From Acidobacteriota bacterium (GTDB taxonomy: Bacteria; Acidobacteriota; Vicinamibacteria; Vicinamibacterales; CAVVIG01), in NCBI GenBank assembly GCA_020850715.1, contig JADZED010000080.1, positions 68,524-132,523 of the forward strand: 64,000 bases of DNA, given 5' to 3'. The number at the start of each line of letters is the position of its first letter. Position 1 is the stretch's first letter. Below, one piece after another: positions 18,091 through 45,737 of this stretch. Under the pieces are notes generated by a model that did no database searches, was not told the origin of the DNA, and was given only the letters and a program-made list of their open reading frames with translations. The position numbers were made by a program, and so were the translations under genes.

Positions 18091-18423
18091 CGCGCGCCTC
18101 GCTTGGAAGATCGGATCGACGCGCGCATTGTGCCACACGCCGCGGGCGATATCGAGGCGTCGCGCGCCGCGGGCCATGGCTACCGGCTATTCGATCCGAC
18201 CATGGATCAGGCCGATGGAAAGGCTCGACGTTCTGCAGCAATCCAACGGGACCGACGCGTCCGGATCTGGCCGGTATTTACCGTGCCTCCCGTATTGAAA
18301 AGGTCACACGCCGGGCCTACCGTGAGCACGGTATTCCGAGCCGCCCGCGCATCGCTCGCGCCGGGCGGACGCCTGGATGCCGGAATCGGGAGCCGTGAGG
18401 CCGGATTGAAGGAGGTTCGCCCC

Positions 18424-21267
18424 ATGCAGCAGCTGACGCATCGGCGATTGATCGGGCCATCATCGAGCCTGGCATGGCTGGCGCTGGCCGCCGGCCTCGG
18501 CCTCGCCGTCTCGGGCATCGAGGCGGCGGCGGGGCAGGCAGGAATTCAAGGTGAGATCATCGGTCACGTGTCCGACGCGACGGGCGCCGTCATGCCCGGC
18601 GTGAGCGTCACGCTCAGCGGGGCGGCCATGATGGGCGCGCAGGAGACCGTGAGCGACGATGCCGGGGGATATCGCTTCGGAGGCGTGCCGCCGGGCGCCG
18701 GCTACGTCCTCAGGCACGAGCTGGCCGGCTTCACGACCGTGGTTCGCGAGGGCATCGTCGTCACTGCCCGCGCCACCACGACCGTGGCGGTGACACTGGG
18801 GGTGGCGGCGGTGGCTGAAACGATCACGGTGAGCGGCGCGGCGCCGCTGGTCGACACGACCAGCGCGAGACAGGGTGCGTCGATCACCAAGGATCTGCTC
18901 GAGTTGATCCCGACCGGGCGCGATCCGTACGCGATCCTCGCGATGGCGCCGGGGATCGTGCGTGTCACGCCGAACGTCGGCGGTTCGGGCGCCGATCAGC
19001 TGCAGAACACCGTGTATGCCGGCACGACGGCGCGGCGCATGAACATCGCCGGCGCCGAGACCGCCGTCCGTTTCTGGGACGGCCGCTACATGAACTTCGA
19101 CGCCTACGAGGAAGTGGTGGTGGAGACCGCCGGCGCCGGGGCGGACATCCGGCGTCCCGGCGGAGGCTACAGCATGGAGCTGGTCCCGAGAAGCGGCGGA
19201 AACCGCCTGCAGGGGAACATCTCCTTCTTCGGGATCGACAAGGCGATGACCGCGAGCAACATCGACGACAGACTGCGCGCCGACGGCGTCAGCGAGGGGG
19301 GCAACACCGACTCGCTGCACGACGTGTCGGTGAACATCGGCGGTCCGTTCGTCAAGGACAGGCTGTGGTGGTTCGCCTCCGCCCGCCACTTTCGCACGTT
19401 CCGCCACGTGCTGGGCATCCCGCAGCTCGAGGAGGGCGTCCTGATTCCGACGGTGATGAACGTCACCGCCCAGCTCAATCCGCAGCACCGCCTCCAGGGC
19501 TTCTGGAGCTGGTCGGCGAAACGGAGCCCGCAGCGCGACATGAGCCGGTTCATCGCGCCGGAAGCGAGCTACAACCAGGACTCGACCGATCAGCTCAAGC
19601 AGATCAAGTGGCTCGGCGCCTTCGGCGACAACTTCGTCGAGCTGCAGGGATTCATGTACGACACCTGGTGGCCGTCCTATCCGCAAGCGGGCAGCGGCGC
19701 GCCGATGAAGGATCTGGCCACCGGGCTCAGCTTTCACGGCCAGTACAACGACTTCACGAAGCGCGATTTCGATCGCTATCAGTCCAGCGGCTCGCTCAGC
19801 CGCCACGTGGCGGACTGGCTGGGTGCGTCGCACGATCTCAAGCTCGGATTCGACTGGCAGACCCACCGGTACGACGAGGACATCGAGGTCGGGCAGGGGT
19901 CCGACAGCCAGGTTCGGTACGAGCTGCGCAACGGGGCGCCGGCATTCGCCGTCCTGTACAACAGCCCCGTCACGCTGAATCGGAACTCCGACGGGCTGTC
20001 GCTCTACCTGCAGGATCGGATCAACCTTGCCCGCCTGACGGTTGGCGCGGGGCTGCGCTGGGATTACTACAACGCCTGGTGGCCGGCCCAGGGGTCGCCT
20101 GACGGCAACCGCTTCGAGGCGATCTTCGGGCGGCTCGACATCGCCAAGAACGGCAAGGTCCTGACGTGGCAGAACGTCGCGCCGCGGTTCAGCGCGGTCT
20201 ACCGGCTGACGGCCGACGGGAGCACGGTCGTCAACGCGGCGTACGGACGATTCCCCGGAGAGATGGATCCCAGCCTTCACACCGACTTCATCCATCCGAG
20301 CGGGCTGCGGTGGCAGCGCCACGTGTGGTACGGCGACGAGAACGGGAACGACGTCCTCGACCTCGCCGAGATCGGTTCGCTCGTCAACCAGTTCGTGCCG
20401 CGCGACAACCGTCTGGATCCCGATCTGGAGAATCCGACGACCGAGGAGGTGAGCGCCAGCCTCAATCGCGACCTGGGCGGGAGCATGGCCCTGAAGGTCA
20501 ATTACGTCTACGCGCGGTACCTCGAGACGATCAATCTCGTGGGGATCAACGCCGCCGTGCCCTCGTCGGCCTACCGGCCCATGGAGATCACCGACCCGGG
20601 TCCCGACGGCGTCCGGAGCACGGGCGACGACCGGCCGCTCACCGTGTACAACCTGGACGCCGCCTACGTCGGGAAGGCGTCGTTCCTGCGGACGAACCTT
20701 CCGGGCGCCCAGCGAAAGGCGCACTCCTTCAACGTGCAGCTGCAGAAGAGGCTGTCCAACAACTGGCAGTTCCTGGTCGGGTACGGCTTCAGCCGGACCA
20801 GCGAGACCGCCAACGTCGACTTCACCAATCCGAACGCCTTGATCAACGCCGAGGGGCGCGCGGACATCGATACGCCTCATTCGTTCTCGCTGACCGGCAG
20901 CTATCAGCTGCCCCACGACGTGGTGCTGTCCGCCAACTGGAACCTGCGGTCGGGCATGCCCTACGACCGGGTGCTGCAGGTGTTCGGACTGCGCCAGGGT
21001 TCGATCAGCGTCAGGGCCGACCCCCTGGGAACCTATCGCCACGACTCGATGAACATGCTCGACTTCAGGGTGGAGAAAGGGTTCCGCGCGGCAACCGGCC
21101 GGCTGGCCCTGCTCGTCGAGGTCTTCAACACGCTCAACACGAACGCGAGCATGGACGTCGGGGTGGGAGGGCTCGGCCGCGGCACGGTGACCGGCGGCAA
21201 CTTCGGCAAGGTCGCCATCGTCGCGCCGCCGCGGACCCTCCGGCTGGGCGCGCGCTTCACTTTCTGA
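18424..21267 (+). CDS. TonB-dependent receptor-like outer-membrane protein with N-terminal carboxypeptidase-regulatory-like domain
   Basis: Signal peptide, 'GHVSDATGAVMPGVSVTLSG...DDAGGYRFGGVPPG' CarboxypepD_reg pattern, a long beta-barrel, and the terminal 'LRLGARFTF'. Confidence 0.8.
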   Translation: MQQLTHRRLIGPSSSLAWLALAAGLGLAVSGIEAAAGQAGIQGEIIGHVSDATGAVMPGVSVTLSGAAMMGAQETVSDDAGGYRFGGVPPGAGYVLRHELAGFTTVVREGIVVTARATTTVAVTLGVAAVAETITVSGAAPLVDTTSARQGASITKDLLELIPTGRDPYAILAMAPGIVRVTPNVGGSGADQLQNTVYAGTTARRMNIAGAETAVRFWDGRYMNFDAYEEVVVETAGAGADIRRPGGGYSMELVPRSGGNRLQGNISFFGIDKAMTASNIDDRLRADGVSEGGNTDSLHDVSVNIGGPFVKDRLWWFASARHFRTFRHVLGIPQLEEGVLIPTVMNVTAQLNPQHRLQGFWSWSAKRSPQRDMSRFIAPEASYNQDSTDQLKQIKWLGAFGDNFVELQGFMYDTWWPSYPQAGSGAPMKDLATGLSFHGQYNDFTKRDFDRYQSSGSLSRHVADWLGASHDLKLGFDWQTHRYDEDIEVGQGSDSQVRYELRNGAPAFAVLYNSPVTLNRNSDGLSLYLQDRINLARLTVGAGLRWDYYNAWWPAQGSPDGNRFEAIFGRLDIAKNGKVLTWQNVAPRFSAVYRLTADGSTVVNAAYGRFPGEMDPSLHTDFIHPSGLRWQRHVWYGDENGNDVLDLAEIGSLVNQFVPRDNRLDPDLENPTTEEVSASLNRDLGGSMALKVNYVYARYLETINLVGINAAVPSSAYRPMEITDPGPDGVRSTGDDRPLTVYNLDAAYVGKASFLRTNLPGAQRKAHSFNVQLQKRLSNNWQFLVGYGFSRTSETANVDFTNPNALINAEGRADIDTPHSFSLTGSYQLPHDVVLSANWNLRSGMPYDRVLQVFGLRQGSISVRADPLGTYRHDSMNMLDFRVEKGFRAATGRLALLVEVFNTLNTNASMDVGVGGLGRGTVTGGNFGKVAIVAPPRTLRLGARFTF

Positions 21268-22821: not shown

Positions 22822-24024
22822 CTACAGCGAAAAGCGGATCTCGCGTCCGCCTCGCGCGAGGATCACCCGGCGACCACGCATCCACGACACGCCGACGTAC
22901 CCGCTGCAATCAATTGGCGCGATCGCCGATGGATCGCGATGCCACGCCTTGATCAGGAATTCAGCAGGCACCGCGGGAGATTCTGCGACCGCCAGCGTCC
23001 CGCTGAACCCGGACCACACTTCGGCCTGTCCCATCATCGTCGGGCTCCAGGTGAGGCGACGATCCGCGGGATGCTTCCCGAGACGCGCGGCGACGGCCGG
23101 GGTCACGATGTCGGCCCCGGCGCCTGAATCGAACAGGAAGTATCCGGCGATCCGGCCGTTCACCGTGCCACCGACAAACGGGTTGCCCTCGTCCCACACG
23201 AGGTCGGCGCGGCCGCCGGCATCCTGTTCCAGCCCCTCCCCGCCCCCGTGGGCTGCGATCTGGAACGTGCGGCGCCCGAAGTCGAGCGCGGCGGTCACCG
23301 TGCGAAGGGTGTCGCCGGGCGAGAGTACGCCCTTGACGCCGAGGTCCTCGGGAAAGTCCGCCACTTGAACCGGACAGGTGGTGAACGACATTTCGCCAAT
23401 CGTGATCCGGTTCACGATGGCCGGACTGATCGGAAGCCGCCGGCCGCTGCCTGACAGCGCGGAGTCGCCCTCCGCCAGCCGGCGGATGCCTGCCTTGTCG
23501 CTGTAGCCGCGCGAAATCAGCGTCGTCGGAGCGCCGGTGTCGACGATGAACGGCTCGGCGGGGTGATGATCGATCGACACCGGAATCGTCGGCAGCAGCG
23601 TACCCTCGACGAACGGCACGACCGACTCTGAACCGGGCTGGAGCTGGTTGATCGGCCGGTCGCCGACGGCCTCGGCGAGCGCTGCCAGCGCGAGGACCTT
23701 GCTCTGCAGCGGCCCCGATGCCGGCATCGCGGCCAGCGCCGCGAGGTCTTCACGCGCGGACGCGATCCCGAGGGTCCGGTAGAGCGCGAGCGCCAGCTCC
23801 CGGCGAGTCTCGGGGCGCTCGCGCAGGACCATGCCCGCCGCCGATGCGGAGATGGCCCGCAGCACCTTGTCGTCCCGCCGCCGGCTGGCCACCAGCACCC
23901 GGCCGAGCGCGGCGTCGCGGTGCCGCCCGAGATCGTCGAGCTCGACGATCGCCTTCGCGGCCGCGCGCCAGTCCACCGCCGACACGGCGCGGTGCAGCCG
24001 CTCGACCGGTGCGGCGTCCATCAT
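22822..24024 (-). CDS. Two-lobed retropepsin-like (clan AA) aspartic protease, cytoplasmic; last gene of the radical SAM operon
   Basis: Two catalytic signatures in one chain, 'FIVDTGAPTTLI' and 'FLFDSGAGADIV'. No signal peptide. ATG-ATG at 24024/24021 lies 23 nt after the upstream rSAM stop; the longer listed ORF would overlap that gene. Confidence 0.65.
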   Translation of the reverse strand: MMDAAPVERLHRAVSAVDWRAAAKAIVELDDLGRHRDAALGRVLVASRRRDDKVLRAISASAAGMVLRERPETRRELALALYRTLGIASAREDLAALAAMPASGPLQSKVLALAALAEAVGDRPINQLQPGSESVVPFVEGTLLPTIPVSIDHHPAEPFIVDTGAPTTLISRGYSDKAGIRRLAEGDSALSGSGRRLPISPAIVNRITIGEMSFTTCPVQVADFPEDLGVKGVLSPGDTLRTVTAALDFGRRTFQIAAHGGGEGLEQDAGGRADLVWDEGNPFVGGTVNGRIAGYFLFDSGAGADIVTPAVAARLGKHPADRRLTWSPTMMGQAEVWSGFSGTLAVAESPAVPAEFLIKAWHRDPSAIAPIDCSGYVGVSWMRGRRVILARGGREIRFSL

Positions 24025-24047
24025 CGCATCGAGCGTACCACGTGCGG

Positions 24048-25100
24048 TCAGGAGAACAGTTCCCGTTCGAGGCGATCCAGTTGCGCGACCACCTCCGGGC
24101 GCGCCGCGCGATCGCTCAGGTAGCGGCCCACGCGCCCTTCGCGATCCCAGAGCTGCACGCAGAGCTCGCACGTCTTGTGAGGCATCAGCGCCGGCTGCAG
24201 GGCCGGATCGCCCGTTTCCGCCAGCCATTTCAGCGGATACGCAAACCCGACGAGCCGCACCAGGCGGAGCAGCGGATCGCGCAGCCACGCCTCGCGAGCC
24301 GACACGAGGCTGTTCCCGCGCGCATCGCCAAACTCGAACGGATGGCAGCCGCGCCGCTCATACGCCAGGCCCGAACAGCACGGCCCGATCGAGCCGTCCT
24401 CCCGGACGATTGGCCCGCTGGACAGGCACGGCTCGAGTGCGGGCGGCCCGGCGGCCGGCGCGACGCGGCGGAGGATCTCGGCGGCGCGGCCGATCCGCCG
24501 GACCGATTGCCGATAGATCGGCACATCGGGCCCCGTGGCGGCGCGCAACTCGTCGAGCAGCGCGAGGTCTTCCTCCGAAGGCGGCGTCTCGACACACGCG
24601 CGCACCGAGTGGGCGATGCGCCTGGCCTGCAGGGCGCGCAGCAGGGCGCAGAAGGCGGACAGCGCCAGCTCCTTCTGGTGGTAGCGATCGAACCCGAGAT
24701 CCCAGTGGTCGATCGCCGCGAGACGGTCGAGCACCTTCAGCGTCGCCGCCGGCGATACGGCCCATGCCCCTGAGGTCACGATCGAAGTGGCGAGCCCGAC
24801 GCGCTTCGCGGCGGCGGCGAGGACCGCCACGCCGGGGAGCGCCAGGACCGGCTCGCCGCCGGTGAACGTCAGGTGACGCACGCCCGCGTCGTACAGGGCG
24901 GGCAGCTCCGCGGCGTAACGCGCGGCGTCGGCGACGGTGAGGGTGTCGCCGGCGACCTCCGGGCCGCTGGACGTCACGCAGTGATCGCAGTGGAGCGGAC
25001 ACCGGCGCGTGACGCTGAACACGAGATTGCTCTGCGCCAGGCGCTGCATCGCCAGGAACTCGTCCGCGCCTGCATAGCCGGGATGAGACGCGTGCGGCAC
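24048..25100 (-). CDS. Radical SAM enzyme, compact twitch/SPASM-like paralogue 1
   Basis: 'CPLHCDHC' CxxxCxxC, 'FTGGEP', 'PCLSSGPIVREDGSIGPCC' (Cx10Gx4CC), 'HPF', 'LLRLVRLVGF' and 'CELC'. GTG 25100 keeps the N-terminal 'EFLAMQRL...FSVT' segment conserved in the paralogues; ATG 25049 is an alternative start. Listed ORF 24048..27059 is mostly an out-of-frame shadow. Confidence 0.8.
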   Translation of the reverse strand: MPHASHPGYAGADEFLAMQRLAQSNLVFSVTRRCPLHCDHCVTSSGPEVAGDTLTVADAARYAAELPALYDAGVRHLTFTGGEPVLALPGVAVLAAAAKRVGLATSIVTSGAWAVSPAATLKVLDRLAAIDHWDLGFDRYHQKELALSAFCALLRALQARRIAHSVRACVETPPSEEDLALLDELRAATGPDVPIYRQSVRRIGRAAEILRRVAPAAGPPALEPCLSSGPIVREDGSIGPCCSGLAYERRGCHPFEFGDARGNSLVSAREAWLRDPLLRLVRLVGFAYPLKWLAETGDPALQPALMPHKTCELCVQLWDREGRVGRYLSDRAARPEVVAQLDRLERELFS

Positions 25101-25108
25101 GGCGCGGA

Positions 25109-27121
25109 TCAGACCGCGGCCAGGTTGAGCATCGGCAGGCGCGCCGGCTGGCGTGCCTCCGGGGCCGGTTCGCCGCCCAGCACGTAGGCCCGCAGCTCCT
25201 CGGTGGTGCGGACCCTGTGGCCGATCGGCAAGGTGAGCAGCTGGCTGCCCTCCGCCATCAGCACGTCCGACTCGATCAGCTCGTTGACGACTGCGTCGAG
25301 CGTGCCGTCGGCGACCTCCTTCGGATACCGGCCCGAAAGCTCGTGCGCCAGCGTCTGCCGGCCCTTGACCTCGTCGCACAGCAGGACGACGTCCTGGTGG
25401 AGATCGGCCAGGCGGAGAAAGCGCCCGTCGCCATGGCGCGTGTCGCGAATCTGCAGGAACCCGGCGCCGATCACGTACTCGTAGACCGGCGGCGTCTTCG
25501 CCTCGTGCGCGGCGATCCACGGCTTGATGGCCTCGCGCAGCTCCTCCACGTACTCGCCGGGCGGGGCCATCCGCGGCGAATTGAACTCGAAGAAATAGCC
25601 GATCTTGCGGGGATCGACGCGCCCTTCGGGGAAATTGAACGTGTAGTCGGACCTGAGCGCGTAGTGATCGACGTCGAGCGCCTCGCGGTCTTCGAAGAGG
25701 GGCGCGAAGCGGTGCATCTCGATGAAGTGCACGTTGTGCAGCGGCGGCTGGATGTGACGCAGGCGGGGAATCAACGCGGCCATGTCGCGATACCACTGCG
25801 CCTCTTCTCCGGGAAACCCCGCCAGCATGTTGTAGGAGAGATGGACGCCGATCTCCCGGCACCACCGCAGGAACATCACGTGCCGGATCGCCGACGTGCC
25901 CTTCTTCATCAGCTGCAGGAGGGGGGTCGACAGCGACTCGATGCCGGGCTGGACGTGCACGACGCCGGCCCGCTTCATCTTCACGATCTGCGCCTTCTTC
26001 ATGCTGGCGCGCACCTCGTAGAACAGCTCGAGATCCAGATCGAGATCGATCAGCCGCTCGAACAGCTCGTCGCAGTGCCAGTGCGAGATGATCCAGTCGG
26101 TCGCGGTGAGCTTGACCGTCTGGTAGCGCGCCGAGATCGTCGCGATCTCGCGGATCACCCGATCGATGCTCTTCGCGCGAAAGCTCATGAGGTCGTCGTT
26201 GATGCCGCAGAACACGCAATGGTTCTTCTGTCCCCACCAGCAGCCGCGCGAGCTCTCGAACGGCACGAACTCGACGTTGAAGACCTTGCCGGTCTCCGCG
26301 CGCAGCCGCTCGGCCTCCTCGTAGAACGCGTCGTAGTCGGGCATCGGGCTCTCGTCGAGATTCGCGAGCGGCCGGCCCGCCACGAGCTGCAGGCGGCCGT
26401 CCCGCCAGCTCGTCACGCCGGGAATGCCGTCGGTCGGCTCGCCGGCCGTGATTCGTCGCAGGTACTCGCGGAACGATTCTTCCGCCTCGCCGAGGAACAC
26501 GTGATCGATCACCTCGGGGAGCCCCCGGTGATACTCCTGCCCCATCTCGCCGTCGAAGCAGGCGCCGCCCGCCAGAATCTGCACCGCGGGGCGCGCGATC
26601 TTGACGCGGCGGGCCAGCGCCAGGCTCGCCATGACCTGGTTGAACGTCGCGCTGAACCCGACGACGGTCGGCTCCATGTCGAGCACGCGGCGCGCCGCCG
26701 CGTCCAGGAAGTGCGGCACCGTTTCGTCGCGCAGGTGCCTGAGATAGGCCAGGTCGCCGAACTTGACGCACCATTGCCCGACGACCTCGTCGCGCTTCAG
26801 CGTACGGTGAAACGCATCGAGGTAGGCATCGCTGTCGAGCGCCTCGCGGCCGAACACGTCGACCGAGAACAGGTGCTCCGACAGGCCGTACAGCGCCCGC
26901 TCGTTGGCGAAGCGCCCCGCGGTCTCGAAGCCGACCAGCGCGGACATGTCGAGATTCGGATACAGACAGCGGACCCCCACGCCGGCTTCTTCGCAGAGCC
27001 GCGAGAGGATGCCCAAGGCAATCGACGGACGCTGCGTCGTTGCCCAGGGCATGTGGCACAGCACGACGCGCGGCCCTGTGCCATCCTGGCGAAGTGATTC
27101 AGGCATGTTGGTATCCAGCAT
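25109..27121 (-). CDS. B12-binding-domain radical SAM enzyme, RiPP maturation C-methyltransferase-like (TIGR03975-like), with C-terminal RRE-like region
   Basis: N-terminal B12-binding-type fold 'VVLCHMPWATTQRPSIALGILS', atypical cluster motif 'SRGCWWGQKNHCVFCG' (Cx7CxxC), and 'VHVQPGIESLS'. ATG 27121 lies 1 nt after the upstream stop (TGA-g-ATG). Confidence 0.8.
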   Translation of the reverse strand: MLDTNMPESLRQDGTGPRVVLCHMPWATTQRPSIALGILSRLCEEAGVGVRCLYPNLDMSALVGFETAGRFANERALYGLSEHLFSVDVFGREALDSDAYLDAFHRTLKRDEVVGQWCVKFGDLAYLRHLRDETVPHFLDAAARRVLDMEPTVVGFSATFNQVMASLALARRVKIARPAVQILAGGACFDGEMGQEYHRGLPEVIDHVFLGEAEESFREYLRRITAGEPTDGIPGVTSWRDGRLQLVAGRPLANLDESPMPDYDAFYEEAERLRAETGKVFNVEFVPFESSRGCWWGQKNHCVFCGINDDLMSFRAKSIDRVIREIATISARYQTVKLTATDWIISHWHCDELFERLIDLDLDLELFYEVRASMKKAQIVKMKRAGVVHVQPGIESLSTPLLQLMKKGTSAIRHVMFLRWCREIGVHLSYNMLAGFPGEEAQWYRDMAALIPRLRHIQPPLHNVHFIEMHRFAPLFEDREALDVDHYALRSDYTFNFPEGRVDPRKIGYFFEFNSPRMAPPGEYVEELREAIKPWIAAHEAKTPPVYEYVIGAGFLQIRDTRHGDGRFLRLADLHQDVVLLCDEVKGRQTLAHELSGRYPKEVADGTLDAVVNELIESDVLMAEGSQLLTLPIGHRVRTTEELRAYVLGGEPAPEARQPARLPMLNLAAV

Positions 27122-27122
27122 C

Positions 27123-28292
27123 TCAGGGGTTCCCGTTGCCAGGGTCGTCCAGGCTCTGGAGCAGCGCCGCGGCATCGGCGAAGCCCTCGATCTCGCCGGC
27201 GTGCGCGCCGAGCTCTTCGATCGTGCGCCGCAGCAGGGCGTGCTCGTCGAGGAGGCGGCTCGCCAGCACGGCGATGCGCAGGCGGTTCTCCGGCGCGCCG
27301 GCCCGGTTCACCAGGTAGGCCGCGACGCGATCGTTGGTCAGCAGCTGCGGGCACAGATCGCACACGTCGTCGGGAAGGGGACGGCGCAGCTCGGCCTCCA
27401 GGTCTGCGTCCTGCACCCATCGCACCACATCGAGAAACCCCACCACGCGGATCATCTGCAGCAGCGGCAGGCTCATGTAGTCGCGGTGCACGTCGGACAG
27501 CAAGCGCAGGCGCGGGTCGCCGACGTCGAACGGGTGGCGCCGCTCTTCGACGAGATTCACGCAGCACGGGGCGACGCTGCCGTCGTAGCGGACGACCAGG
27601 CCCTGCGTGATGCAGGGCTTGTTCCACGGGTGGTATTTCTCGCTGTCGCCCAGGCCCAGGTCCAGGCCGCGCCCCACCTTGCGCACCCGCTGGCTGCAGA
27701 CGTCTTCCGGATCCGCGAAGGTGCCGACCCAGGACAGCATCCGCTCGTCCTCCTCGGTAGGCGGGTCGTGATAGGTGAACCGGATCGTGGCGGTGCGCCC
27801 GAGCCGCCGGGCCGCCTCGTACGCCCTCGACACGTTCTCCTTCGCCACAAACGGCGTGTGATAGATGTCGGTTGAAATGTCCCAGATCTGAATGCCCGGA
27901 TACCGGCCGACGATCTTCGCCGCGCTGGTCTCGTCGTACGCCCAGTGCGCGGCCGTCACCACGCCCGATGTCAGCCCGGCGGCCCCCGCGGCGTCGCTCA
28001 TCACCTGCAGCTGGTCGCGAGCCAGCAGCGGTTCGCCGCCGGTGAAGCTGATCGCCCGAATGCCGTAGGCCGCCAGATCCGCCATCTGCCCCGCATAGCG
28101 CCGCGCGACCTCGATCGGCATCGTCGTCGAACCCTTGTCCGGTCCGGCGTCGACGATGCAGTGCGCGCAGCGAAGCGGGCAGGCGAGCGTGAGATTGAAC
28201 GTCAGATGCCGCGCCGCGCCCTTCTGCATCTGCGCGAGCTGCGCCAGCGTCAGGCGCACTTTCGGATCCGGCAGGCGAACGGCTACCGACAC
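27123..28292 (-). CDS. Radical SAM enzyme, compact twitch/SPASM-like paralogue 2
   Basis: 'CPLRCAHC', 'FTGGEP', 'WDISTDIYH', 'PCITQGLVVRYDGSVAPCC', 'HPF', 'LLQMIRVVGF' and 'CDLC'. GTG 28292 overlaps the paralogue 3 stop by 10 nt. Confidence 0.85.
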   Translation of the reverse strand: MSVAVRLPDPKVRLTLAQLAQMQKGAARHLTFNLTLACPLRCAHCIVDAGPDKGSTTMPIEVARRYAGQMADLAAYGIRAISFTGGEPLLARDQLQVMSDAAGAAGLTSGVVTAAHWAYDETSAAKIVGRYPGIQIWDISTDIYHTPFVAKENVSRAYEAARRLGRTATIRFTYHDPPTEEDERMLSWVGTFADPEDVCSQRVRKVGRGLDLGLGDSEKYHPWNKPCITQGLVVRYDGSVAPCCVNLVEERRHPFDVGDPRLRLLSDVHRDYMSLPLLQMIRVVGFLDVVRWVQDADLEAELRRPLPDDVCDLCPQLLTNDRVAAYLVNRAGAPENRLRIAVLASRLLDEHALLRRTIEELGAHAGEIEGFADAAALLQSLDDPGNGNP

Positions 28293-29356
28293 GCGACCTG
28301 TTTCTCCTGCATGAAGGTCTCGCCGAAGATCGCCGCAGCCAGCTCGGCGATCTTGGCGCTGTTTTCAGGGCGTTCGGCGCGCTGGCGAACGGCCGCGGCC
28401 ACCGGCGGGCTCGTCCAGAGCCGCACGCAGCACTCGCACGGATGGCGGGGCGCCGCGGCCGCCATCGGATGATCGGGAAACATCTCGTCGACCCACTGCA
28501 GGACCGGCGCGAATCCGACGGTCCGGATCAGCTGCAGCAGCGGATCGGTGCACCAGCGATCGTGCGCAGCGGCGAGGCCGGCCCGATCGGCGCGGGGGTA
28601 CTGGAACGGATGGCCGTCGCGCTGGTCCACGAGCCCGGCGCAGCAGGGCGCGACCGTCCCGTCGTGCCGGACGACCATGCCGTTGGGAATGCAGGGCCAC
28701 GCCGGCACGCCGGCGGCCGGCACGTCGGTCGCGATCGCGGCGCCGCGCCCGTTTCGGGTCACCGGCTGCACCGCGATGCCGACGCCCGGGGGAAGCTGCT
28801 CGAGGAGCGCGCTGTAGAGCGCCTGGTGCTCCGCCGGCAACGGGACCGGCGCCGCCATGCGCACCAGCGCCTTCCGCCCCGCGCCAATCGCTTCGCGCGC
28901 CGCGTGGAGGACGACCTCCATCGGCGCGAACTCGAGGTGATAGATGTCGGTCGAGAGGTGCCAGTGTTCGATCGCGTCGAAATGACGGATGTGCTGCCGC
29001 GCGGCCGCCGGCGTTGCCGCCCAATGGCACGCCGTCACGATCGTGCACGTCATGCCCGAGGCGACGGCCGCGCGCGAGAGAATCTCGAGCTGGCGGCGCG
29101 CCAGCATGGGTTCGCCGCCGGTGAAGCTGATGCGCACGACTCCCCGCGCCGCGAGCTCGGGAAGCTCGCCCGCGTACCGTTCGGCAGCCTCGACGGAGAG
29201 GTACCGCGTCGTGTCCGCCACCGGCACGGTCGAGACGATGCAGTGACGGCAGGCGAGGGGACAGGCCTCCGTCAGGCTGAACGCCACATGCCTCGCAGAG
29301 AGCGCCTGCAGGCCGGTCAACTGTTCGGTGGTGAGAATGGCGCCGAGATCGTGCAT
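28283..29356 (-). CDS. Radical SAM enzyme, compact twitch/SPASM-like paralogue 3
   Basis: 'CPLACRHC', 'FTGGEP', 'WHLSTDIYH', 'PCIPNGMVVRHDGTVAPCC', 'HPF', 'LLQLIRTVGF' and 'CECC'. ATG 29356 was chosen as start; GTG 29380 is an alternative. Confidence 0.85.
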   Translation of the reverse strand: MHDLGAILTTEQLTGLQALSARHVAFSLTEACPLACRHCIVSTVPVADTTRYLSVEAAERYAGELPELAARGVVRISFTGGEPMLARRQLEILSRAAVASGMTCTIVTACHWAATPAAARQHIRHFDAIEHWHLSTDIYHLEFAPMEVVLHAAREAIGAGRKALVRMAAPVPLPAEHQALYSALLEQLPPGVGIAVQPVTRNGRGAAIATDVPAAGVPAWPCIPNGMVVRHDGTVAPCCAGLVDQRDGHPFQYPRADRAGLAAAHDRWCTDPLLQLIRTVGFAPVLQWVDEMFPDHPMAAAAPRHPCECCVRLWTSPPVAAAVRQRAERPENSAKIAELAAAIFGETFMQEKQVACR

Positions 29357-29440
29357 CCCTGGGTCCTCTCGCGCGCACACCCCGACTGTCCGATCGAAGC
29401 GATCGCCGGCAGCCGGGGTGCGATGGGAGGCTGCCGGGCG

Positions 29441-29606
29441 CTAGTGTCCCGTCCCGGTGGTTCGCGACACCATTCGCGGGCGGCGCATCCCCGCTGGCGG
29501 CGTTGCTCGTCGCTCAGATATCCCCAATATCCTCACTCCTCGCGCCTGGCCATCGGGGCGCGGCGCTCCGCGAGTGATGCCACGATCCACTGGGACGGGA
29601 CACTAG
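29441..29606. repeat. MITE-like repeat element, copy 1 (~166 bp, ~30-bp terminal inverted repeats, CTAG at both ends)
   Basis: Left end is 'ctagtgtcccgtcccggtggttcgcgacacc'; the reverse complement of the right end is 'ctagtgtcccgtcccagtggatcgtggcatc'. A second copy lies at 45557-45708. Central hairpin 'gatat-cccca-atatc'. Confidence 0.75.
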
Positions 29607-29911
29607 CCCGGAAGCTTGCGGATGACTTCGACGCCGCCGGCGCCACGCAACCGGGTCGCCACGAGCTCGCGATTCACGGCCTGGCGGGACGCGACCTTGC
29701 CGAGCTCGTTCAACAGCGAGGAGGTCGTCACCGACGCATTGTCGGTCACGGCGTTCACCTCGTAGTTGTCCTCGACGCCGCTGCCCGGCCGCAGCTGCAC
29801 GAGCTCGCTGATCGTCATCTGCTCGAATGGCTTCTGCGCGCCGGGAATGCGCACGGAGCGCAGATCCTGGGTGCTCCCGACAACATAGGTGAGCTTGGTG
29901 CGATCGGGCAT
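29603..29911 (-). CDS. Hypothetical 102-aa protein; candidate substrate/precursor of the downstream radical SAM operon
   Basis: Strong RBS (AGGAGGGAGAC-ATG) and GC3-rich codons. No Cys, Trp or His. S/T/V/N-rich middle and '...RLRGAGGVEVIRKLPG' end. The TAG stop lies inside the terminal CTAG of the repeat element. Confidence 0.7.
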   Translation of the reverse strand: MPDRTKLTYVVGSTQDLRSVRIPGAQKPFEQMTISELVQLRPGSGVEDNYEVNAVTDNASVTTSSLLNELGKVASRQAVNRELVATRLRGAGGVEVIRKLPG

Positions 29912-33129: not shown

Positions 33130-33402
33130 GATCGGCTCCTCGAGCGCCGGCACAAGCTGGCGCGCTTCCGTGATCCCGACCGGTCGTTCGACATCTTTGA
33201 CTTCGATTTCAACAAGAAGATGAATTGCGCCCTGGTCTTCGATCTGGCGACCGGCCGCTTCATTGGCCAGCGCGAAGACGTCCTGCTTCTTGGCCCGCCG
33301 GGCACTGGCAAGAGCCACCTCGCCCAGGCGATCGGCCGTGCCGCCATCCAGCAGGGCTACCGGGTGATCTATCGGGAGGCGCACACGCTGCTGGAGGAGA
33401 TT
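33130..33402 (+). pseudogene. Truncated IS21-family istB (transposition helper ATPase) remnant
   Basis: 'RLLERRHKLARF...FDIFDFDFNKK...VLLLGPPGTGKSHLAQAIGRAAIQQGYRVIY' (Walker A). Homology stops abruptly at 33402, no istA is present, and further decayed or frameshifted N-terminal sequence may lie upstream. Confidence 0.7.
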
Positions 33403-33490
33403 TCAGCATCGCCAGAATCCGTGTTCAGCATGGCCAGAATCCGCGTTCGGCTTGGGTCGGAATCGGCGTTCAGCATGGACCAGAGCACGC
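33402..33490. repeat. Four head-to-tail 22-23-nt direct repeats at the istB breakpoint
   Basis: The four units are 'ttcagcatcgccagaatccgtg', 'ttcagcatggccagaatccgcg', 'ttcggcttgggtcggaatcggcg' and 'ttcagcatggaccagagcacgc'. Confidence 0.7.
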
Positions 33491-33700
33491 ACCAAGGCAG
33501 CCGGAGAGGTTCTTCTCCTGATCGTTCAATTGAGGAAGGATCTCAGAGCCGTAAGAGCGCAGCTTGCGCCTCGAGACAGACGTCGAATCTCGCCACTCAT
33601 CCATACCTGCAACGAGATGTTCGATGTCTGCATGGAAGCGATCTGGCCTGAGAATGGGCCGGTCCGGCCGTTCACCGGCAACGATTAACTCCGATTCTTC

Positions 33701-34957
33701 CTATGCGGCCTGTTCAGGGAACAACCCGGGCATCCAACGCGCCGCCAACGCTGCAGGGAAAGTGATGAACAGGGGCGCCCGCGTGCTCTCTGAAGCAAGC
33801 ACGCCACGATCAAGCAAAGCAGACACAACACGCCGGGCAGCACGTTCACTTGCTCCCAGCAGCGAGGGAACATCGCCGCGCGGCAACTCGCCGCGGAACA
33901 GAACCGCCTCGAGAACCCGGCCTGACTTCGCGGGAAGCGTACCGGCCCGAACCTCCTCCTCGGTCCAGAGCAGAATGCGATCCCTCAGACGATCCGGCTG
34001 CACAAGCTGCTCCATGAAGCGAACCTGATCGAGACAGGTCTTGAGAAAGAACTTCGTGAATTCCGCAAGCGCGTCCTCGCTCAGCGCTCCTCGCCCGTCA
34101 AGATCGTTGCGGCGCGCCGAATCGCAATTCATCAGGTGCTGCTTGTACTCGGCCGCATTTCGCGCAAGACCGCGGGCTACCGACCAGACGCTTCCGGTAT
34201 CGAGCGCTTCCAGCAGGCTTGCATGCGACATCAAACGCACCACGCGCCCATTACCGTCGGCAAAAGGGTGAATCCACAGCAGACGATGGTGCGCCGCCGC
34301 CGCCGAAAGAATCGTTTCAGATCGTCCGAGCGTCGCATAGACCTGCTCGAAACGTGTCATGAACCGGGGCACCGCGCCCGGACTGATCGCGAAGTGGCGT
34401 CCGACCTTCACATCATCACGACGAAATGCACCTGCAACGACCCTCACCGTACGCCCGCTCTCAGGGTCTGAAACCAGAAGTAGCGCTTCGGGCAGATGTT
34501 CGCTGAACCGCCGATGAATCTCCCGGACGGCTTCAATTGTCGTTGCGCGGCCCTTTAGGCCGCCCTCATCGATCCAGCGCTGCACGGCAACATGGGCCTT
34601 CGCTTCGAGTTGCAGATTGCGCTTTTCGGCGTCAGCGCTGTAGTCGTTATTCATCGCCCGCTCGATGTCCACCGGATGCGTGTTGTGTCCCTCAATCAGA
34701 TTGGAGTAGTAGCAGTTCATCGCCCTGACGAGTTCGGCCAGCGGTCCGACGATGCCAGCCGGCAAGCTACGCCGAAATCCTGACGAAGCAGCCGCGAGCT
34801 CGACTGCCAGATCGCTCAGCGGTCCCCGATGCCATGAGCCCTCAGACAGAACCAGCGGTTCCATCGCGGTTGTGTTTTCACCGCGGTCATTGGCCCCCTG
34901 TTTGGCCGCTTCTAAGGCCGGTTCGTCAACGCTCATAATCAACCGTATAACATGCAT
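33701..34957 (-). CDS. Fic family protein (AMPylase/Fido domain)
   Basis: Canonical Fic motif 'HPFADGNGRVVR' and the N-terminal Fic_N-like 'YYSNLIEGHNT'. The local GC looks lower than the surrounding sequence. Confidence 0.85.
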   Translation of the reverse strand: MHVIRLIMSVDEPALEAAKQGANDRGENTTAMEPLVLSEGSWHRGPLSDLAVELAAASSGFRRSLPAGIVGPLAELVRAMNCYYSNLIEGHNTHPVDIERAMNNDYSADAEKRNLQLEAKAHVAVQRWIDEGGLKGRATTIEAVREIHRRFSEHLPEALLLVSDPESGRTVRVVAGAFRRDDVKVGRHFAISPGAVPRFMTRFEQVYATLGRSETILSAAAAHHRLLWIHPFADGNGRVVRLMSHASLLEALDTGSVWSVARGLARNAAEYKQHLMNCDSARRNDLDGRGALSEDALAEFTKFFLKTCLDQVRFMEQLVQPDRLRDRILLWTEEEVRAGTLPAKSGRVLEAVLFRGELPRGDVPSLLGASERAARRVVSALLDRGVLASESTRAPLFITFPAALAARWMPGLFPEQAA

Positions 34958-35178
34958 TTAGCAGAAATTCAACCATGCTATTGGCCGCTTCGATGGCCGG
35001 TTTGTTGGCCGCTCAGTCCGGCAGAATGGCTGGGTTTCCAAAATACCGCTGACTTGTTTCACCGGAGCCGGCCTACAACTTCGGCCTCGTGAGGAAGATC
35101 GTTTCGGAATGAACTAGAAGGTATGGCGGATGACGCCGCAAGCGCCCAGAGCAGCTAATCGGCGCTGAAAGCCGATCT

Positions 35179-35207
35179 CTTGACAACAGACTTGACAACT
35201 TGACAAC
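35179..35207. repeat. Three copies of CTTGACAAC next to the tRNA-Leu 3' end
   Basis: 'cttgacaac-aga-cttgacaac-ttgacaac' lies 31-59 nt beyond the 3' end of the tRNA, at the tRNA/islet junction. Confidence 0.6.
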
Positions 35208-35237
35208 TTACGGCCGCCATAAATCGTCGTAAGTCAT

Positions 35238-35324
35238 TGGTGCGGAAGGGGGGATTCGAACCCCCACGGTCTTGCGACCGCCAGCCCCTCAAGCTGGTGC
35301 GTCTGCCAGTTCCGCCACTTCCGC
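35238..35324 (-). tRNA. tRNA-Leu (anticodon GAG), long variable arm, CCA encoded
   Basis: Manual fold: acceptor GCGGAAG/CTTCCGC, anticodon stem CCAGC/GCTGG with loop TTGAGGG, variable arm CGGTCGCAAGACCG, and T-arm GGGGG-TTCGAAT-CCCCC. Confidence 0.9.
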
Positions 35325-45560: not shown

Positions 45561-45708
45561 TGCCCCGTCCCAGTGGTTCGCGACACAACTTGCGGGCGGC
45601 GCATCCCGGCGGACGGCGTTGCTCCTCCCTCGAATACTCGCGGTATTCTCGGTCGTCGCGCCTTGCCATCCGGGCGCCGCGCCCGGGACTACGTTGACGG
45701 GACACTGG
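45557..45708. repeat. MITE-like repeat element, copy 2 (~150 bp) between hldA and hldC
   Basis: 'ctagtgccccgtcccagtggttcgcgacac...gcgggcggcgcatccc...ggcgttgctc' is nearly identical to copy 1 over the first ~70 nt. Right end is 'gacgggacactgg'. Central hairpin 'gaatac-tcgcg-gtattc'. Confidence 0.7.
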
Positions 45709-45737
45709 GAATCGGGGTTTCCGAAGCCATCATTCAG

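What the first reader, a model, noticed from the sequence alone, without database searches (positions are those of the whole stretch)
22822..29911. Uncharacterised radical-SAM-rich, RiPP-like operon (102-aa ORF, three paralogous twitch-like rSAMs, B12-rSAM, two-lobed retropepsin-like protease)
Seen:
- Six same-strand (minus) genes have coupling-type junctions. rSAM-3 and rSAM-2 overlap by 10 nt (28283-28292). rSAM-2 is followed by TGA-g-ATG into the B12-rSAM (27121-27125). The B12-rSAM stop is 8 nt from the next GTG. The rSAM-1 stop is 23 nt from the protease ATG.
- Four of the six genes are radical SAM enzymes. Three carry CxxxCxxC (CPLACRHC, CPLRCAHC, CPLHCDHC) and one carries Cx7CxxC (GCWWGQKNHCVFCG) behind a B12-binding-type N-domain.

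Established knowledge:
- The Cx7CxxC architecture is what I recognise from the TIGR03975 / 'RiPP maturation radical SAM C-methyltransferase' family.
- Cx9-15Gx4C auxiliary-cluster modules are typical of peptide-modifying SPASM/twitch enzymes.

Inference: this is a peptide maturation pathway. Its enzyme set has no transporter and no Cys-containing or NHLP/Nif11-type precursor, and a clan AA protease would serve as the peptidase. It does not match any RiPP class I know (sactipeptides and ranthipeptides need Cys; proteusins use NHLP leaders and PoyD-type epimerases). The flanking genes are unrelated hydrolases, which suggests a self-contained accessory module.
Basis: partly seen in the sequence, partly recalled or inferred. 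Interest (0 to 1): 0.85.

Follow-up and report, generated by a model that had tools for sequence, protein, structure and literature searches.

The report
Uncharacterised epimerase-and-methylase peptide maturation operon
This is a real, widely conserved six-gene operon that most likely turns a small ribosomal peptide into a product carrying D-amino acids and extra methyl groups, using an enzyme combination and a precursor family that no described peptide natural-product class has.

Summary

- **Methylase.** The B12 enzyme is a clear TIGR03975 RiPP C-methyltransferase (540 bits against a cutoff of 282).
- **Paralogous radical SAM (rSAM) enzymes.** The three paralogues are distant but full-length relatives of the peptide epimerase EpeE/YydG. 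The profile E-value is 1e-23, and the AF2 model matches PDB 8AI1-6 with TM 0.80-0.82. All auxiliary-cluster cysteines and the H-donor Cys223 equivalent are invariant.
- **Precursor.** The 102-aa ORF belongs to a rare, unnamed family of about 40 clusters among 1.8 billion proteins.
- **Synteny.** In every locus long enough to judge (about 23), this ORF is followed in fixed order by two EpeE-like rSAMs and the B12 enzyme. The loci come from Acidobacteriota, Alpha- and Deltaproteobacteria and Bacillota. A third rSAM, the two-lobed Asp protease and an S8 peptidase are optional.
- **Precursor anatomy.** The family has a conserved leader box (…LTISELVQLRPG), a Ser/Thr/Val/Asn-rich core and a variable tail. 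Some members carry Tat signals.

Best reading: a new RiPP family that combines epipeptide-type epimerases with proteusin-type C-methylation. Chemistry and product are inferred, not shown. No publication was found. I rate it a new variant of a known kind, interest about 0.6.

The parts
29603..29911 (-). Gene A: 102-aa predicted precursor peptide. It has no Cys and belongs to no known family.
   Evidence: An AGGAGG box sits 5 nt upstream. Nine close homologues were found. A profile search of 1.84e9 proteins found 40 representatives. A rSAM gene always follows it. The AF2 model has mean pLDDT 54.8, and residues 42-60 are below 50. NCBI names its homologues 'hypothetical protein'.
29783..29866 (-). 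Leader box (residues 16-43, DLrxVRIPGxxKPFEQlTISELVQLRPG); an inferred recognition and cleavage region.
   Evidence: This is the lowest-entropy segment across 55 family members, at 1.07 bits, against 1.75 for the core and 2.87 for the tail. The distant variant in L035 has a classical ...ELSEEELEDVAGGG leader at the same place.
29696..29764 (-). Inferred core (residues 50-72, YEVNAVTDNASVTTSSLLNELGK).
   Evidence: It is moderately conserved and rich in Val, Thr, Ser and Asn. It overlaps the segment AF2 models with lowest confidence, residues 42-60. Its assignment as the substrate region is an inference.
29440..29607 (-). 168-nt palindrome that starts at the stop codon of A; a probable mRNA hairpin (attenuator or stabiliser).
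   Evidence: The arms are 59 nt and 76% complementary. The 254-nt intergenic RNA folds at -165 kcal/mol with z = -9.1. A related copy lies at about 45545-45720. Other loci also have a strong GC hairpin directly after A.
28283..29356 (-). rSAM-3: EpeE/YydG-like radical SAM enzyme with a twitch (T-SPASM) domain; a predicted peptide epimerase.
   Evidence: It hits PF04055 and, as best NCBIfam, TIGR04078. Positional orthologues are 43-59% identical in all loci. The profile hit to 8AI1-6 has E 1.4e-23.
27123..28292 (-). rSAM-2: EpeE/YydG-like radical SAM enzyme; a predicted peptide epimerase.
   Evidence: TIGR04078 aligns over positions 3-295 of 309. The top PDB hit is YydG. The AF2 model has pLDDT 92.9 and matches EpeE with TM 0.80-0.82 at E 1e-14, while the next fold scores E 1e-6. 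C227, C243, C244, C311 and C314 are invariant in 44 homologues.
25109..27121 (-). B12-binding radical SAM enzyme of family TIGR03975 (RiPP C-methyltransferase), with a C-terminal PqqD-like domain.
   Evidence: It scores 539.8 bits against a cutoff of 281.85, covering the full model. The Cx7CxxC motif GCWWGxxxxCxFCG is present in all 25 loci that contain the gene. The C-terminal 200 aa give weak PqqD hits in 6 of 10 orthologues.
24048..25100 (-). rSAM-1: third EpeE/YydG-like paralogue, optional across the family. The start is GTG 25100 or ATG 25049.
   Evidence: TIGR04078 aligns over positions 3-296 of 309. Orthologues occur only in L001, L006, L007, L010, L027 and L040.
22822..24024 (-). Single-chain two-lobed retropepsin-like aspartic protease with a helical N-domain of about 140 aa and no signal peptide; the predicted leader peptidase.
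   Evidence: PF13650 and PF13975 each match in two stretches. D162-x-G-A and D299-x-G are invariant in 10 orthologues. It lies downstream of the rSAMs in most loci.

Best explanation
This is a RiPP (ribosomally synthesised, post-translationally modified peptide) pathway.

1. **Precursor.** Gene A is translated into an unstructured precursor. Its conserved leader box (about residues 16-43, ending ...ELVQLRPG) recruits the enzymes. Recruitment is probably through a PqqD-like domain fused to the C-terminus of the B12 enzyme.
2. **Epimerisation.** Two to three EpeE/YydG-type radical SAM enzymes abstract C-alpha hydrogens at specific residues of the Val/Thr/Ser/Asn-rich core. They return a hydrogen from the opposite face through the invariant second Cys of the PCC motif (the EpeE Cys223 equivalent). 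This converts L- to D-residues.
3. **Methylation.** The TIGR03975 cobalamin-dependent radical SAM enzyme adds methyl groups to unactivated carbons.
4. **Processing.** The two-lobed aspartic protease then removes the leader. In variants with a long acidic ...DPFKA tail, an S8 peptidase trims the follower.
5. **Export.** In a Tat-signal subfamily the modified peptide is exported by Tat and cut in the periplasm.

Shown here: gene anatomy, family assignments, fold, conserved catalytic residues and co-conservation. Inferred: that A is the substrate, the leader/core boundary, epimerisation and methylation as the actual chemistry, and the role of the proteases.
For: Synteny: gene A is followed in fixed order by a rSAM3-type gene, a rSAM2-type gene and the B12-rSAM in every locus long enough to judge. 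These loci come from Acidobacteriota/Terriglobia, Bradyrhizobium, Cereibacter, Desulfobacteraceae and Bacillota.

Methylase: TIGR03975 scores 540 bits against a cutoff of 282.

Epimerase-like enzymes:
- A profile of 25 paralogues and orthologues hits EpeE/YydG over its full length with E 1.4e-23, while the next hit, SkfB, has E 5e-7.
- The AF2 model (pLDDT 92.9) matches 8AI1-6 with TM 0.80-0.82.
- The PCC motif aligns to EpeE C222/C223 and is invariant in 25/25 and 44/44 sequences.
- C223 is the established H-atom donor (PMC13012085).

Precursor:
- A is predicted to be disordered.
- Its leader box is more conserved than the core, and the core more than the tail.
- The distant variant in L035 has a textbook double-Gly leader.
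- Hairpins follow A in all 8 loci folded.
- Tat signals in a subset show that A itself is the exported entity.

Proteases:
- Both catalytic Asp of the aspartic protease are invariant.
- The S8 peptidase co-occurs with the DPF[KQ]A tail in 7 of 7 loci.
Against: - No experiment exists, and nothing shows that A is modified.
- The paralogues score only 39-47 bits against the YydG equivalog model, whose cutoff is 300. They are 16-18% identical to EpeE.
- EpeE Asp210, the proposed proton donor for Cys223 regeneration, aligns to an invariant Gly in this family.
- The RRE assignment rests on sub-threshold PqqD hits.
- The 'core' is unusually conserved for a RiPP, and a helix of about 30 residues is predicted after it, at low confidence.
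- There is no transporter or immunity gene in the window.
- The protease is absent from both Bacillota loci.
Confidence: 0.6

Rival explanations
1. It is still a RiPP pathway acting on A, but the EpeE-like paralogues do not epimerise. They would use the C-alpha or side-chain radical for other chemistry, such as C-C or C-O cross-links at the conserved Tyr/Trp, dehydrogenation or backbone changes. Three paralogues would then install three different modifications.
For: - Similarity to EpeE is remote: 16-18% identity, and far below the equivalog cutoff.
- The Asp210 equivalent is Gly.
- A conserved aromatic residue (Y/W50) sits at the start of the core.
- One epimerase suffices for 2 sites in EpeX and for 18 sites in PoyA (PMC8326336). 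Three conserved orthologue lines therefore hint at distinct jobs.
Against: - The H-donor Cys (C223 equivalent) is invariant next to a cluster ligand in all 44 homologues. Cross-linking rSAMs have no known need for it.
- There is a single auxiliary cluster, as in EpeE, not the two-cluster SPASM domain typical of cross-linkers.
- The fold matches EpeE at TM 0.80-0.82, while the best non-EpeE matches reach only TM 0.41-0.60 at E 1e-6.
Confidence: 0.2
2. A is not a precursor cut down to a small peptide. It would be a small protein that functions as a modified whole, for example in the periplasm after Tat export. The radical SAM enzymes would be protein-modifying enzymes, as for methyl-coenzyme M reductase, and the 'protease' would only remove a pro-region or act elsewhere.
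For: - A is 100-190 aa long and conserved over about 70 residues.
- Tat normally carries folded proteins, and some members have Tat signals.
- The protease is missing in the Bacillota loci.
- B12-rSAMs do modify proteins such as MCR (PMC8828468, listed).
Against: - AF2 gives no confident fold: pLDDT is 54.8 and pTM 0.24.
- The B12 enzyme belongs to the RiPP family, not to Mmp10 or QCMT (33 bits to TIGR04014).
- The distant relative in L035 has a classical short leader-core peptide.
- One or two peptidases are co-conserved in most loci.
Confidence: 0.12
3. It is a small-molecule or cofactor pathway in which A is a regulator or chaperone and the rSAMs act on a non-peptide substrate.
For: There is no direct proof that A is a substrate. 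JGI auto-annotation calls the rSAMs 'pyruvate-formate lyase-activating enzyme'.
Against: - The best family hits are all peptide-modifying: TIGR03975, YydG, StsB and PqqE.
- No other biosynthetic gene is co-conserved. Flanks differ in every locus.
- Peptidases are co-conserved.
Confidence: 0.03

Closest known systems
Epipeptide system epeXEPAB (YydF/YydG) of Bacillus subtilis and other Bacillota
   Same: - The three paralogues share the EpeE fold over its full length. The profile E-value is 1.4e-23 and TM is 0.80-0.82 to 8AI1-6.
- They share the CxxxCxxC cluster, the single auxiliary cluster in an extended twitch domain, and the PCC motif containing the H-donor Cys223 equivalent.
- The substrate core is rich in Val/Ile-type residues and lacks Cys.
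   Different: - Identity is 16-18%, and scores are far below the TIGR04078 cutoff.
- Asp210 is replaced by Gly.
- There are two to three paralogues per operon instead of one.
- The precursor family is unrelated and about 100 aa or longer, against 49 aa for EpeX.
- A B12 C-methylase is present.
- The peptidase is an aspartic protease (plus or minus S8), not the EpeP membrane protease, and there is no EpeAB ABC transporter.
- The system is found mostly in Gram-negative phyla, whereas epipeptides are described as restricted to Bacillota (PMC13012085).
Proteusins (polytheonamide type: PoyA/PoyD/PoyB/PoyC; OspD, AvpD, PlpD systems)
   Same: - The predicted chemistry is the same combination: radical epimerisation plus cobalamin-dependent C-methylation of a long ribosomal precursor.
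- The methylase belongs to TIGR03975, the family cited for proteusin-type maturation.
- The leader is long and conserved.
   Different: - The leader is not NHLP or Nif11. None of 41 members hits those models.
- The epimerase lineage differs. [quoted passage not shown]
- No N-methyltransferase, dehydratase or papain-like protease is present.
Clavusporin (mpc) clusters of Actinobacteria
   Same: - A B12-rSAM performs multiple C-methylations on a Val/Ile/Thr-rich core.
- The precursor has a leader-core-acidic follower architecture, with a dedicated leader peptidase and a separate follower-removing step (PMC10849626).
- The long ...DPFKA variants paired with S8 look analogous.
- The C-terminal domain of the window's B12 enzyme gives a faint DUF5825 hit at E 0.058. 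DUF5825 is the MpcC partner family.
   Different: - The mpc clusters have no epimerase-like rSAMs.
- They have a 39-aa precursor, an S9 peptidase, an MFS transporter and a separate DUF5825 protein.
- They are found in Actinobacteria only.

Membership tests
TIGR03975 RiPP maturation radical SAM C-methyltransferase (B12-rSAM gene 25109-27121) | Whole-protein HMM score above NCBIfam's curated cutoff, covering the full model. | tested here: met
   It scores 539.8 bits against a cutoff of 281.85, over model positions 1-606 of 606. The next family, ApyD, scores 67 bits.
TIGR03975 RiPP maturation radical SAM C-methyltransferase (B12-rSAM gene 25109-27121) | N-terminal cobalamin-binding domain plus a radical SAM core with a Cys triad. 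| tested here: met
   PF02310 scores 27.7 bits (E 2.7e-6, below GA 32.1) and PF04055 scores 49.5 bits. The Cx7CxxC motif GCWWGxxxxCxFCG is conserved in all 25 loci that hold the gene.
TIGR03975 RiPP maturation radical SAM C-methyltransferase (B12-rSAM gene 25109-27121) | Cobalamin-dependent C-methylation of a peptide. | not testable with these tools
   This needs co-expression or in-vitro assay with LC-MS (+14 Da).
EpeE/YydG radical SAM peptide epimerase (TIGR04078) | Equivalog HMM score above the curated cutoff. | tested here: not met
   The three paralogues score 39.2, 46.8 and 41.0 bits against a cutoff of 300. The alignments are nonetheless nearly full length.
EpeE/YydG radical SAM peptide epimerase (TIGR04078) | EpeE fold: radical SAM core plus an extended twitch (T-SPASM) domain with one auxiliary [4Fe-4S] cluster. 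| tested here: met
   The profile matches 8AI6 with E 1.4e-23 over profile positions 14-321 and chain positions 21-328. The AF2 model (pLDDT 92.9) matches 8AI1-6 with TM 0.80-0.82, while the best non-EpeE matches (CteB, BtrN) have E about 1e-6 and TM 0.41-0.60. The ligand-equivalent Cys C227, C243, C311 and C314 are invariant.
EpeE/YydG radical SAM peptide epimerase (TIGR04078) | Catalytic H-atom donor cysteine (EpeE Cys223). | tested here: met
   The PCC motif aligns to EpeE C222/C223, after correcting the chain numbering by a 25-residue tag. The second Cys (C244 of rSAM-2) is invariant in 25/25 and 44/44 sequences. Its role is documented in PMC13012085.
EpeE/YydG radical SAM peptide epimerase (TIGR04078) | Asp210, the proposed proton donor coupled to thiyl reduction. 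| tested here: not met
   It aligns to the invariant Gly231 of rSAM-2. Nearby acidic residues (invariant D237, near-invariant E249) might substitute.
EpeE/YydG radical SAM peptide epimerase (TIGR04078) | The epeXEPAB operon context (EpeX peptide, EpeP protease, EpeAB ABC transporter) in Bacillota. | tested here: not met
   No such genes occur in the window or in any of the related loci.
Proteusins | Precursor with a nitrile-hydratase-like (NHLP) or Nif11 leader. | tested here: not met
   None of 41 A-family members hits TIGR03793, TIGR03798 or any RiPP-precursor model at E<=1. Pfam gives no hit either.
Proteusins | [quoted passage not shown] | tested here: not met
   The epimerase-like enzymes here are EpeE-type with an auxiliary cluster. 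The two types share no significant homology (PMC8326336).
RiPP biosynthetic gene cluster (generic) | A small co-oriented precursor gene co-conserved with the tailoring enzymes, with a conserved leader and a more variable core. | tested here: met
   A is always followed by the enzymes. Entropy is 1.07 bits for the leader box, 1.75 for the core and 2.87 for the tail. The L035 variant has a GG-type leader.
RiPP biosynthetic gene cluster (generic) | RiPP recognition element (PqqD-like domain). | tested here: inconclusive
   The C-terminal 200 aa of the B12-rSAM hit PF05402 in 6 of 10 orthologues, with best E 0.008. All hits are below threshold. A PDB profile search gave only noise.
Clan AA retropepsin-like aspartic protease (PF13650/PF13975) | HMM hit above the gathering score, present twice in one chain. 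| tested here: met
   PF13650 scores 57.0 bits (GA 24.3) in 2 stretches. PF13975 scores 54.9 bits in 2 stretches.
Clan AA retropepsin-like aspartic protease (PF13650/PF13975) | Catalytic D-[TS]-G in each lobe. | tested here: met
   D162-T-G-A and D299-S-G-A are present. D162, G164, D299 and G301 are invariant in 10 orthologues. One orthologue (L032) has D-L-G in lobe 2.
Clan AA retropepsin-like aspartic protease (PF13650/PF13975) | Membership of the named subfamily TIGR02281 (clan_AA_DTGA). | tested here: not met
   It scores 16.6 bits against a cutoff of 57.95.

The most novel reading that the evidence does not exclude
The operon would make a polytheonamide-like product by a route built independently of the proteusins. 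A long linear peptide would be given a pattern of D-residues by two or three site-specialised EpeE-type epimerases and hardened by B12-dependent C-methylation. The result would be a membrane-active or channel-forming peptide in soil Acidobacteria, rhizobia and sulfate reducers. It would come with a new leader family, the first retropepsin-type RiPP leader peptidase, and a subfamily that leaves the cell by the Tat pathway.
Probability: 0.3. Interest if true: 0.8.

Novelty: new variant of a known kind. Interest (0 to 1): 0.62.

Why it matters
- **Epimerase range.** EpeE-type epimerases are currently known from one system said to be confined to Bacillota. Here the same fold and catalytic Cys appear as two to three specialised paralogues in at least four phyla, wired to a cobalamin C-methylase.
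- **Convergent route.** If the predicted chemistry holds, nature has assembled the proteusin-like combination of D-residues and C-methyl groups a second time from a different epimerase lineage. That would also supply site-selective epimerases for peptide engineering.
- **New parts.** The precursor family, the single-chain two-lobed aspartic leader peptidase and the Tat-signal variants are all unnamed in current libraries.
- **Testability.** Cultured carriers exist: Cereibacter ovatus JA234, Bradyrhizobium sp. HKCCYLS20291 and Desulfolucanica intricata. The hypothesis is therefore directly testable.
- **Detection gap.** antiSMASH would flag the locus only generically through its TIGR03975 rule, which at least one study discarded as a likely false positive.

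Tried and rejected
1. **Third paralogue and Asn53.** I asked whether the optional rSAM-1 type tracks the Asn in the core motif 'EVNAVTDN'. The first 11 loci fitted, but L037 and L039 have the Asn without the third rSAM. Rejected.
2. **Pentapeptide-repeat immunity gene.** Such a gene is adjacent in L032 (identical to L038) and in L040. The copies are only 26% identical, and the gene is absent from L001, L006, L007, L010 and the window. It is not a conserved component.
3. **P0041.** This 1952-aa protein gave 11 partial matches to the A profile. It is a cadherin-like repeat protein matching on composition, and the hit is spurious.
4. **PDB profile search with the B12 C-terminal domain.** It gave only bromodomain and adenylate-kinase noise.
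5. **Signals in the region.** The sigma-70 promoter scan found nothing upstream of A on the minus strand, and the terminator scan was at chance level. Rfam found nothing in 22-31 kb, including no cobalamin riboswitch.
6. **Literature.** Searches for TIGR03975, T-SPASM, retropepsin + RiPP, YydG + B12, and epimerase + cobalamin + Acidobacteria found no description of this cluster.
8. **Palindrome at 45.5 kb.** The repeat finder did not find this second copy to be palindromic. It is a degenerate copy.

Full report
**1. Observation**

Six minus-strand genes lie between 29911 and 22822.
- A (29911-29603, 102 aa) has an AGGAGG box 5 nt before its ATG.
- rSAM-3 spans 29356-28283, rSAM-2 spans 28292-27123, and the B12-rSAM spans 27121-25109.
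- rSAM-1 spans 25100-24048. An ATG at 25049 is an alternative start.
- The protease spans 24024-22822.

The junctions are a 10-nt overlap, TGA-g-ATG, an 8-nt gap and a 23-nt gap, as reported. The Cys motifs CPLACRHC, CPLRCAHC, CPLHCDHC and GCWWGQKNHCVFCG are present. Each paralogue also carries Cx10Gx4CC...CxxC. The flanks are a convergent M20 peptidase and a divergent amidase.

**2. Enzyme families**

Pfam finds PF04055 in all four rSAMs, and PF02310 in the B12 enzyme (27.7 bits, below the 32.1 cutoff). PF13650 and PF13975 each match the protease twice.

NCBIfam places the B12 enzyme firmly in TIGR03975, 'RiPP maturation radical SAM C-methyltransferase'. It scores 539.8 bits against a cutoff of 281.85 over the full model. 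HpnJ, PhpK, BchE and the MCR methylase score 33-60 bits. The unusual Cx7CxxC triad is conserved in all 25 related loci that contain this gene.

The three paralogues score best against the YydG epimerase model, nearly end to end, or close to best in the case of rSAM-3. They reach only 39-47 bits against a cutoff of 300. They are therefore not YydG equivalogs.

**3. The paralogues are EpeE/YydG-like**

- Single-sequence phmmer against PDB puts YydG first.
- A profile of 25 paralogues and orthologues matches YydG/EpeE chains 8AI1-8AI6 over their full length with E 1.4e-23. The next hit, SkfB, has E 5e-7.
- An AF2 model of rSAM-2 built on 44 homologues has mean pLDDT 92.9 and pTM 0.90.
- That model superposes on EpeE with target-normalised TM 0.80-0.82 and E about 1e-14. 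The best non-EpeE matches (CteB, BtrN) have E about 1e-6 and TM 0.41-0.60.
- After correcting the crystal construct numbering by its 25-residue tag, the family's invariant PCC motif aligns with EpeE C222/C223. C227, C311 and C314 align with the remaining auxiliary-cluster cysteines.
- Cys223 is the H-atom donor that quenches the C-alpha radical from the opposite face (PMC13012085).

One feature is not shared. EpeE Asp210 is the proposed proton donor for regenerating the thiol. It aligns with an invariant Gly in this family.

**4. The small ORF is a real, rare, unnamed family tied to these enzymes**

- It has nine close homologues at 49-75% identity.
- An exhaustive profile search of 1.84 billion representatives finds only 40 proteins. 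One of them, P0041, is a compositional false positive.
- None of 41 members hits any NCBIfam precursor family such as NHLP, Nif11 or others at E<=1.
- NCBI names the Cereibacter and Bradyrhizobium copies 'hypothetical protein'.
- AF2 gives no confident fold. Mean pLDDT is 54.8, and residues 42-60 are below 50.

**5. Synteny**

I recovered loci through the precursor and through rSAM-2 homologues.
- Every locus with enough DNA shows A, then a rSAM3-type gene, then a rSAM2-type gene, then the B12-rSAM, in that order. Each paralogue matches its positional orthologue best.
- Hosts include Acidobacteriota/Terriglobia MAGs, Bradyrhizobium sp. HKCCYLS20291, Cereibacter ovatus JA234, an alphaproteobacterial MAG, a Desulfobacteraceae MAG, Desulfolucanica intricata and a Bacillota MAG.
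- The third paralogue (rSAM-1 type) is optional. It occurs in the window, L001, L006, L007, L010, L027 and L040.
- The Asp protease follows in most loci but is absent from the two Bacillota loci.
- L011, from a Solibacteraceae MAG, is a decayed copy.
- Flanking genes differ everywhere, so the unit is self-contained and mobile. In the window, an IstB-like fragment, a Fic gene and tRNA-Leu lie 3-5 kb away.

**6. Anatomy of the precursor**

Across 55 members the segment 16-43 (DLrxVRIPGxxKPFEQlTISELVQLRPG) is the most conserved, at 1.07 bits entropy. The segment 50-72 (YEVNAVTDNxSVTTSSxLxxLG) is intermediate at 1.75 bits, and the tail is variable at 2.87 bits.

A distant variant, L035, pairs one EpeE-like rSAM, the same B12 enzyme, a JmjC protein and an Asp protease with a 92-aa peptide. 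That peptide's leader reads ...LDELSELSEEELEDVAGGG and is followed by WSISVMGNVNANGAVVG. This is a textbook double-Gly RiPP precursor aligned to the same box. It supports placing the leader/core boundary near ...LRPG|S/G.

Three subtypes exist.
- Short forms, like the window's.
- Long forms ending in an acidic ...DPF[KQ]A tail. These always co-occur with an S8 peptidase, in 7 of 7 loci.
- Forms with an N-terminal Tat signal. TIGR01409 passes its cutoff in two members and is borderline in others. In the one Tat-type locus where the protease could be read (L032, identical to L038), it has a signal peptide, and a CsgG-like lipoprotein gene lies upstream in the Tat-type loci.

**7. Other supporting features**

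- The C-terminal 200 residues of the B12 enzyme give sub-threshold PqqD hits in 6 of 10 orthologues. This is compatible with a fused recognition element but not proof.
- Both catalytic Asp of the protease are invariant in 10 orthologues.
- A strong hairpin follows the precursor gene in all 8 loci I folded.
- In the window that hairpin is a 168-nt palindrome. The surrounding RNA folds at -165 kcal/mol with z = -9.1. A second, degenerate copy lies near 45.5 kb, so it is a REP/MITE-like repeat sitting where an attenuator would be expected.

**8. Mechanism**

The best-supported model runs as follows.
1. A is bound through its leader box.
2. Two or three EpeE-type enzymes convert specific core residues to D-configuration through the conserved Cys.
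3. The TIGR03975 enzyme C-methylates unactivated carbons.
4. The aspartic protease removes the leader.
5. S8 trims the acidic follower where one is present.
6. Tat exports the product in one subfamily.

The enzyme family assignments, the fold, the catalytic residues and the co-conservation are shown. The substrate identity, the sites, the actual chemistry and the product function are inferred. Overall confidence is about 0.6 for this full statement and about 0.85 that it is a RiPP pathway acting on A.

**9. Comparison and novelty**

- It works like a hybrid of epipeptides (the epimerase lineage) and proteusins or clavusporins (B12 C-methylation, long leader, follower). It fails the membership tests for each of them.
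- It is not a YydG equivalog and lacks the epeXEPAB context, which is described as restricted to Bacillota.
- It has no NHLP leader and no PoyD-type epimerase.
- It has no DUF5825, S9 or MFS set.
- antiSMASH would flag it only through its generic TIGR03975 rule.
- Six literature searches found no description of it.

I rate it a new variant of a known kind. It is a solid, testable genome-mining lead rather than a categorically new system. Interest is 0.62.

Noticed in passing
window 29440-29607 and about 45545-45720: A 168-nt GC-rich palindrome begins at the stop codon of gene A. The surrounding RNA folds at -165 kcal/mol with z = -9.1. A second, more degenerate copy lies 16 kb away, next to an ORF end. 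It looks like a REP/MITE-like genomic repeat.
   Followed up: partly
window 33220-35324: An IstB-like ATPase fragment (33220-33651), a Fic-domain-like ORF (33701-34957, -) and tRNA-Leu(GAG) (35238-35324, -) lie just beyond the operon's upstream neighbours. GC dips to 0.63 at 34-36 kb. This could be a genomic-island edge. The protein identities were read from the translations and not tested.
   Followed up: no
L030 1911-2408, L032 4826-5311 (= L038 5339-5827); P0013, P0022, P0023, P0026, P0028, P0036, P0039: A subfamily of the precursor carries an N-terminal twin-arginine (Tat) signal. In the one Tat-type locus where the protease could be read (L032, identical to L038), the Asp protease has a signal peptide. 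In the Tat-type loci (L030/L031 and L032/L038) a CsgG-like lipoprotein gene lies directly upstream. This suggests export of the modified peptide by Tat, periplasmic processing and perhaps an outer-membrane pore.
   Followed up: partly
L001, L005, L006, L007, L010, L014, L040: Precursors with a long acidic C-terminal extension ending ...DPF[KQ]A (or DPFSAS) always have an S8 subtilase in the cluster. It lies downstream of the Asp protease, or upstream of A in L005 and L014. Short precursors never have one.
   Followed up: partly
L035 9465-16307: A distant cousin cluster holds a 92-aa peptide with a classical ...EELEDVAGGG leader, one EpeE-like rSAM, the same B12-rSAM (identical GCWWGQKNHCVFCG motif), a JmjC-like protein and a 600-aa Asp protease, with an S51 peptidase gene just downstream (16720-17811).
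   Followed up: partly
L011 9953-12452 (Solibacteraceae MAG): A decayed copy of the cluster. The precursor is intact, rSAM-3 is split, rSAM-2 is cut to about 100 aa, the B12-rSAM is missing and the protease is truncated.
   Followed up: partly
L032 11054-12220 (= L038 11567-12691), L040 3354-4688: Pentapeptide-repeat protein genes sit next to two cluster subtypes. Such proteins are immunity factors for some gyrase-targeting peptides. They are only 26% identical to each other and are absent from the other loci and the window.
   Followed up: partly
L034 4311-8283 (Desulfolucanica intricata): In this Bacillota genome the cluster is preceded by a sensor kinase, a sigma-54 activator and a MimR_N/GAF regulator. 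Other loci have AraC (L004) or Crp/Fnr-type (L008, L009) regulators upstream. Regulation is therefore lineage-specific.
   Followed up: no
window 17900-21267 (+): The C-terminal two thirds of the long + strand ORF read like a TonB-dependent receptor with an N-terminal carboxypeptidase-regulatory-like domain, a type common in Acidobacteriota. The cluster's closest relatives are also acidobacterial, with 57-66% identity for rSAM-3 and the B12 enzyme. The window probably comes from a high-GC acidobacterium. This was not tested.
   Followed up: no
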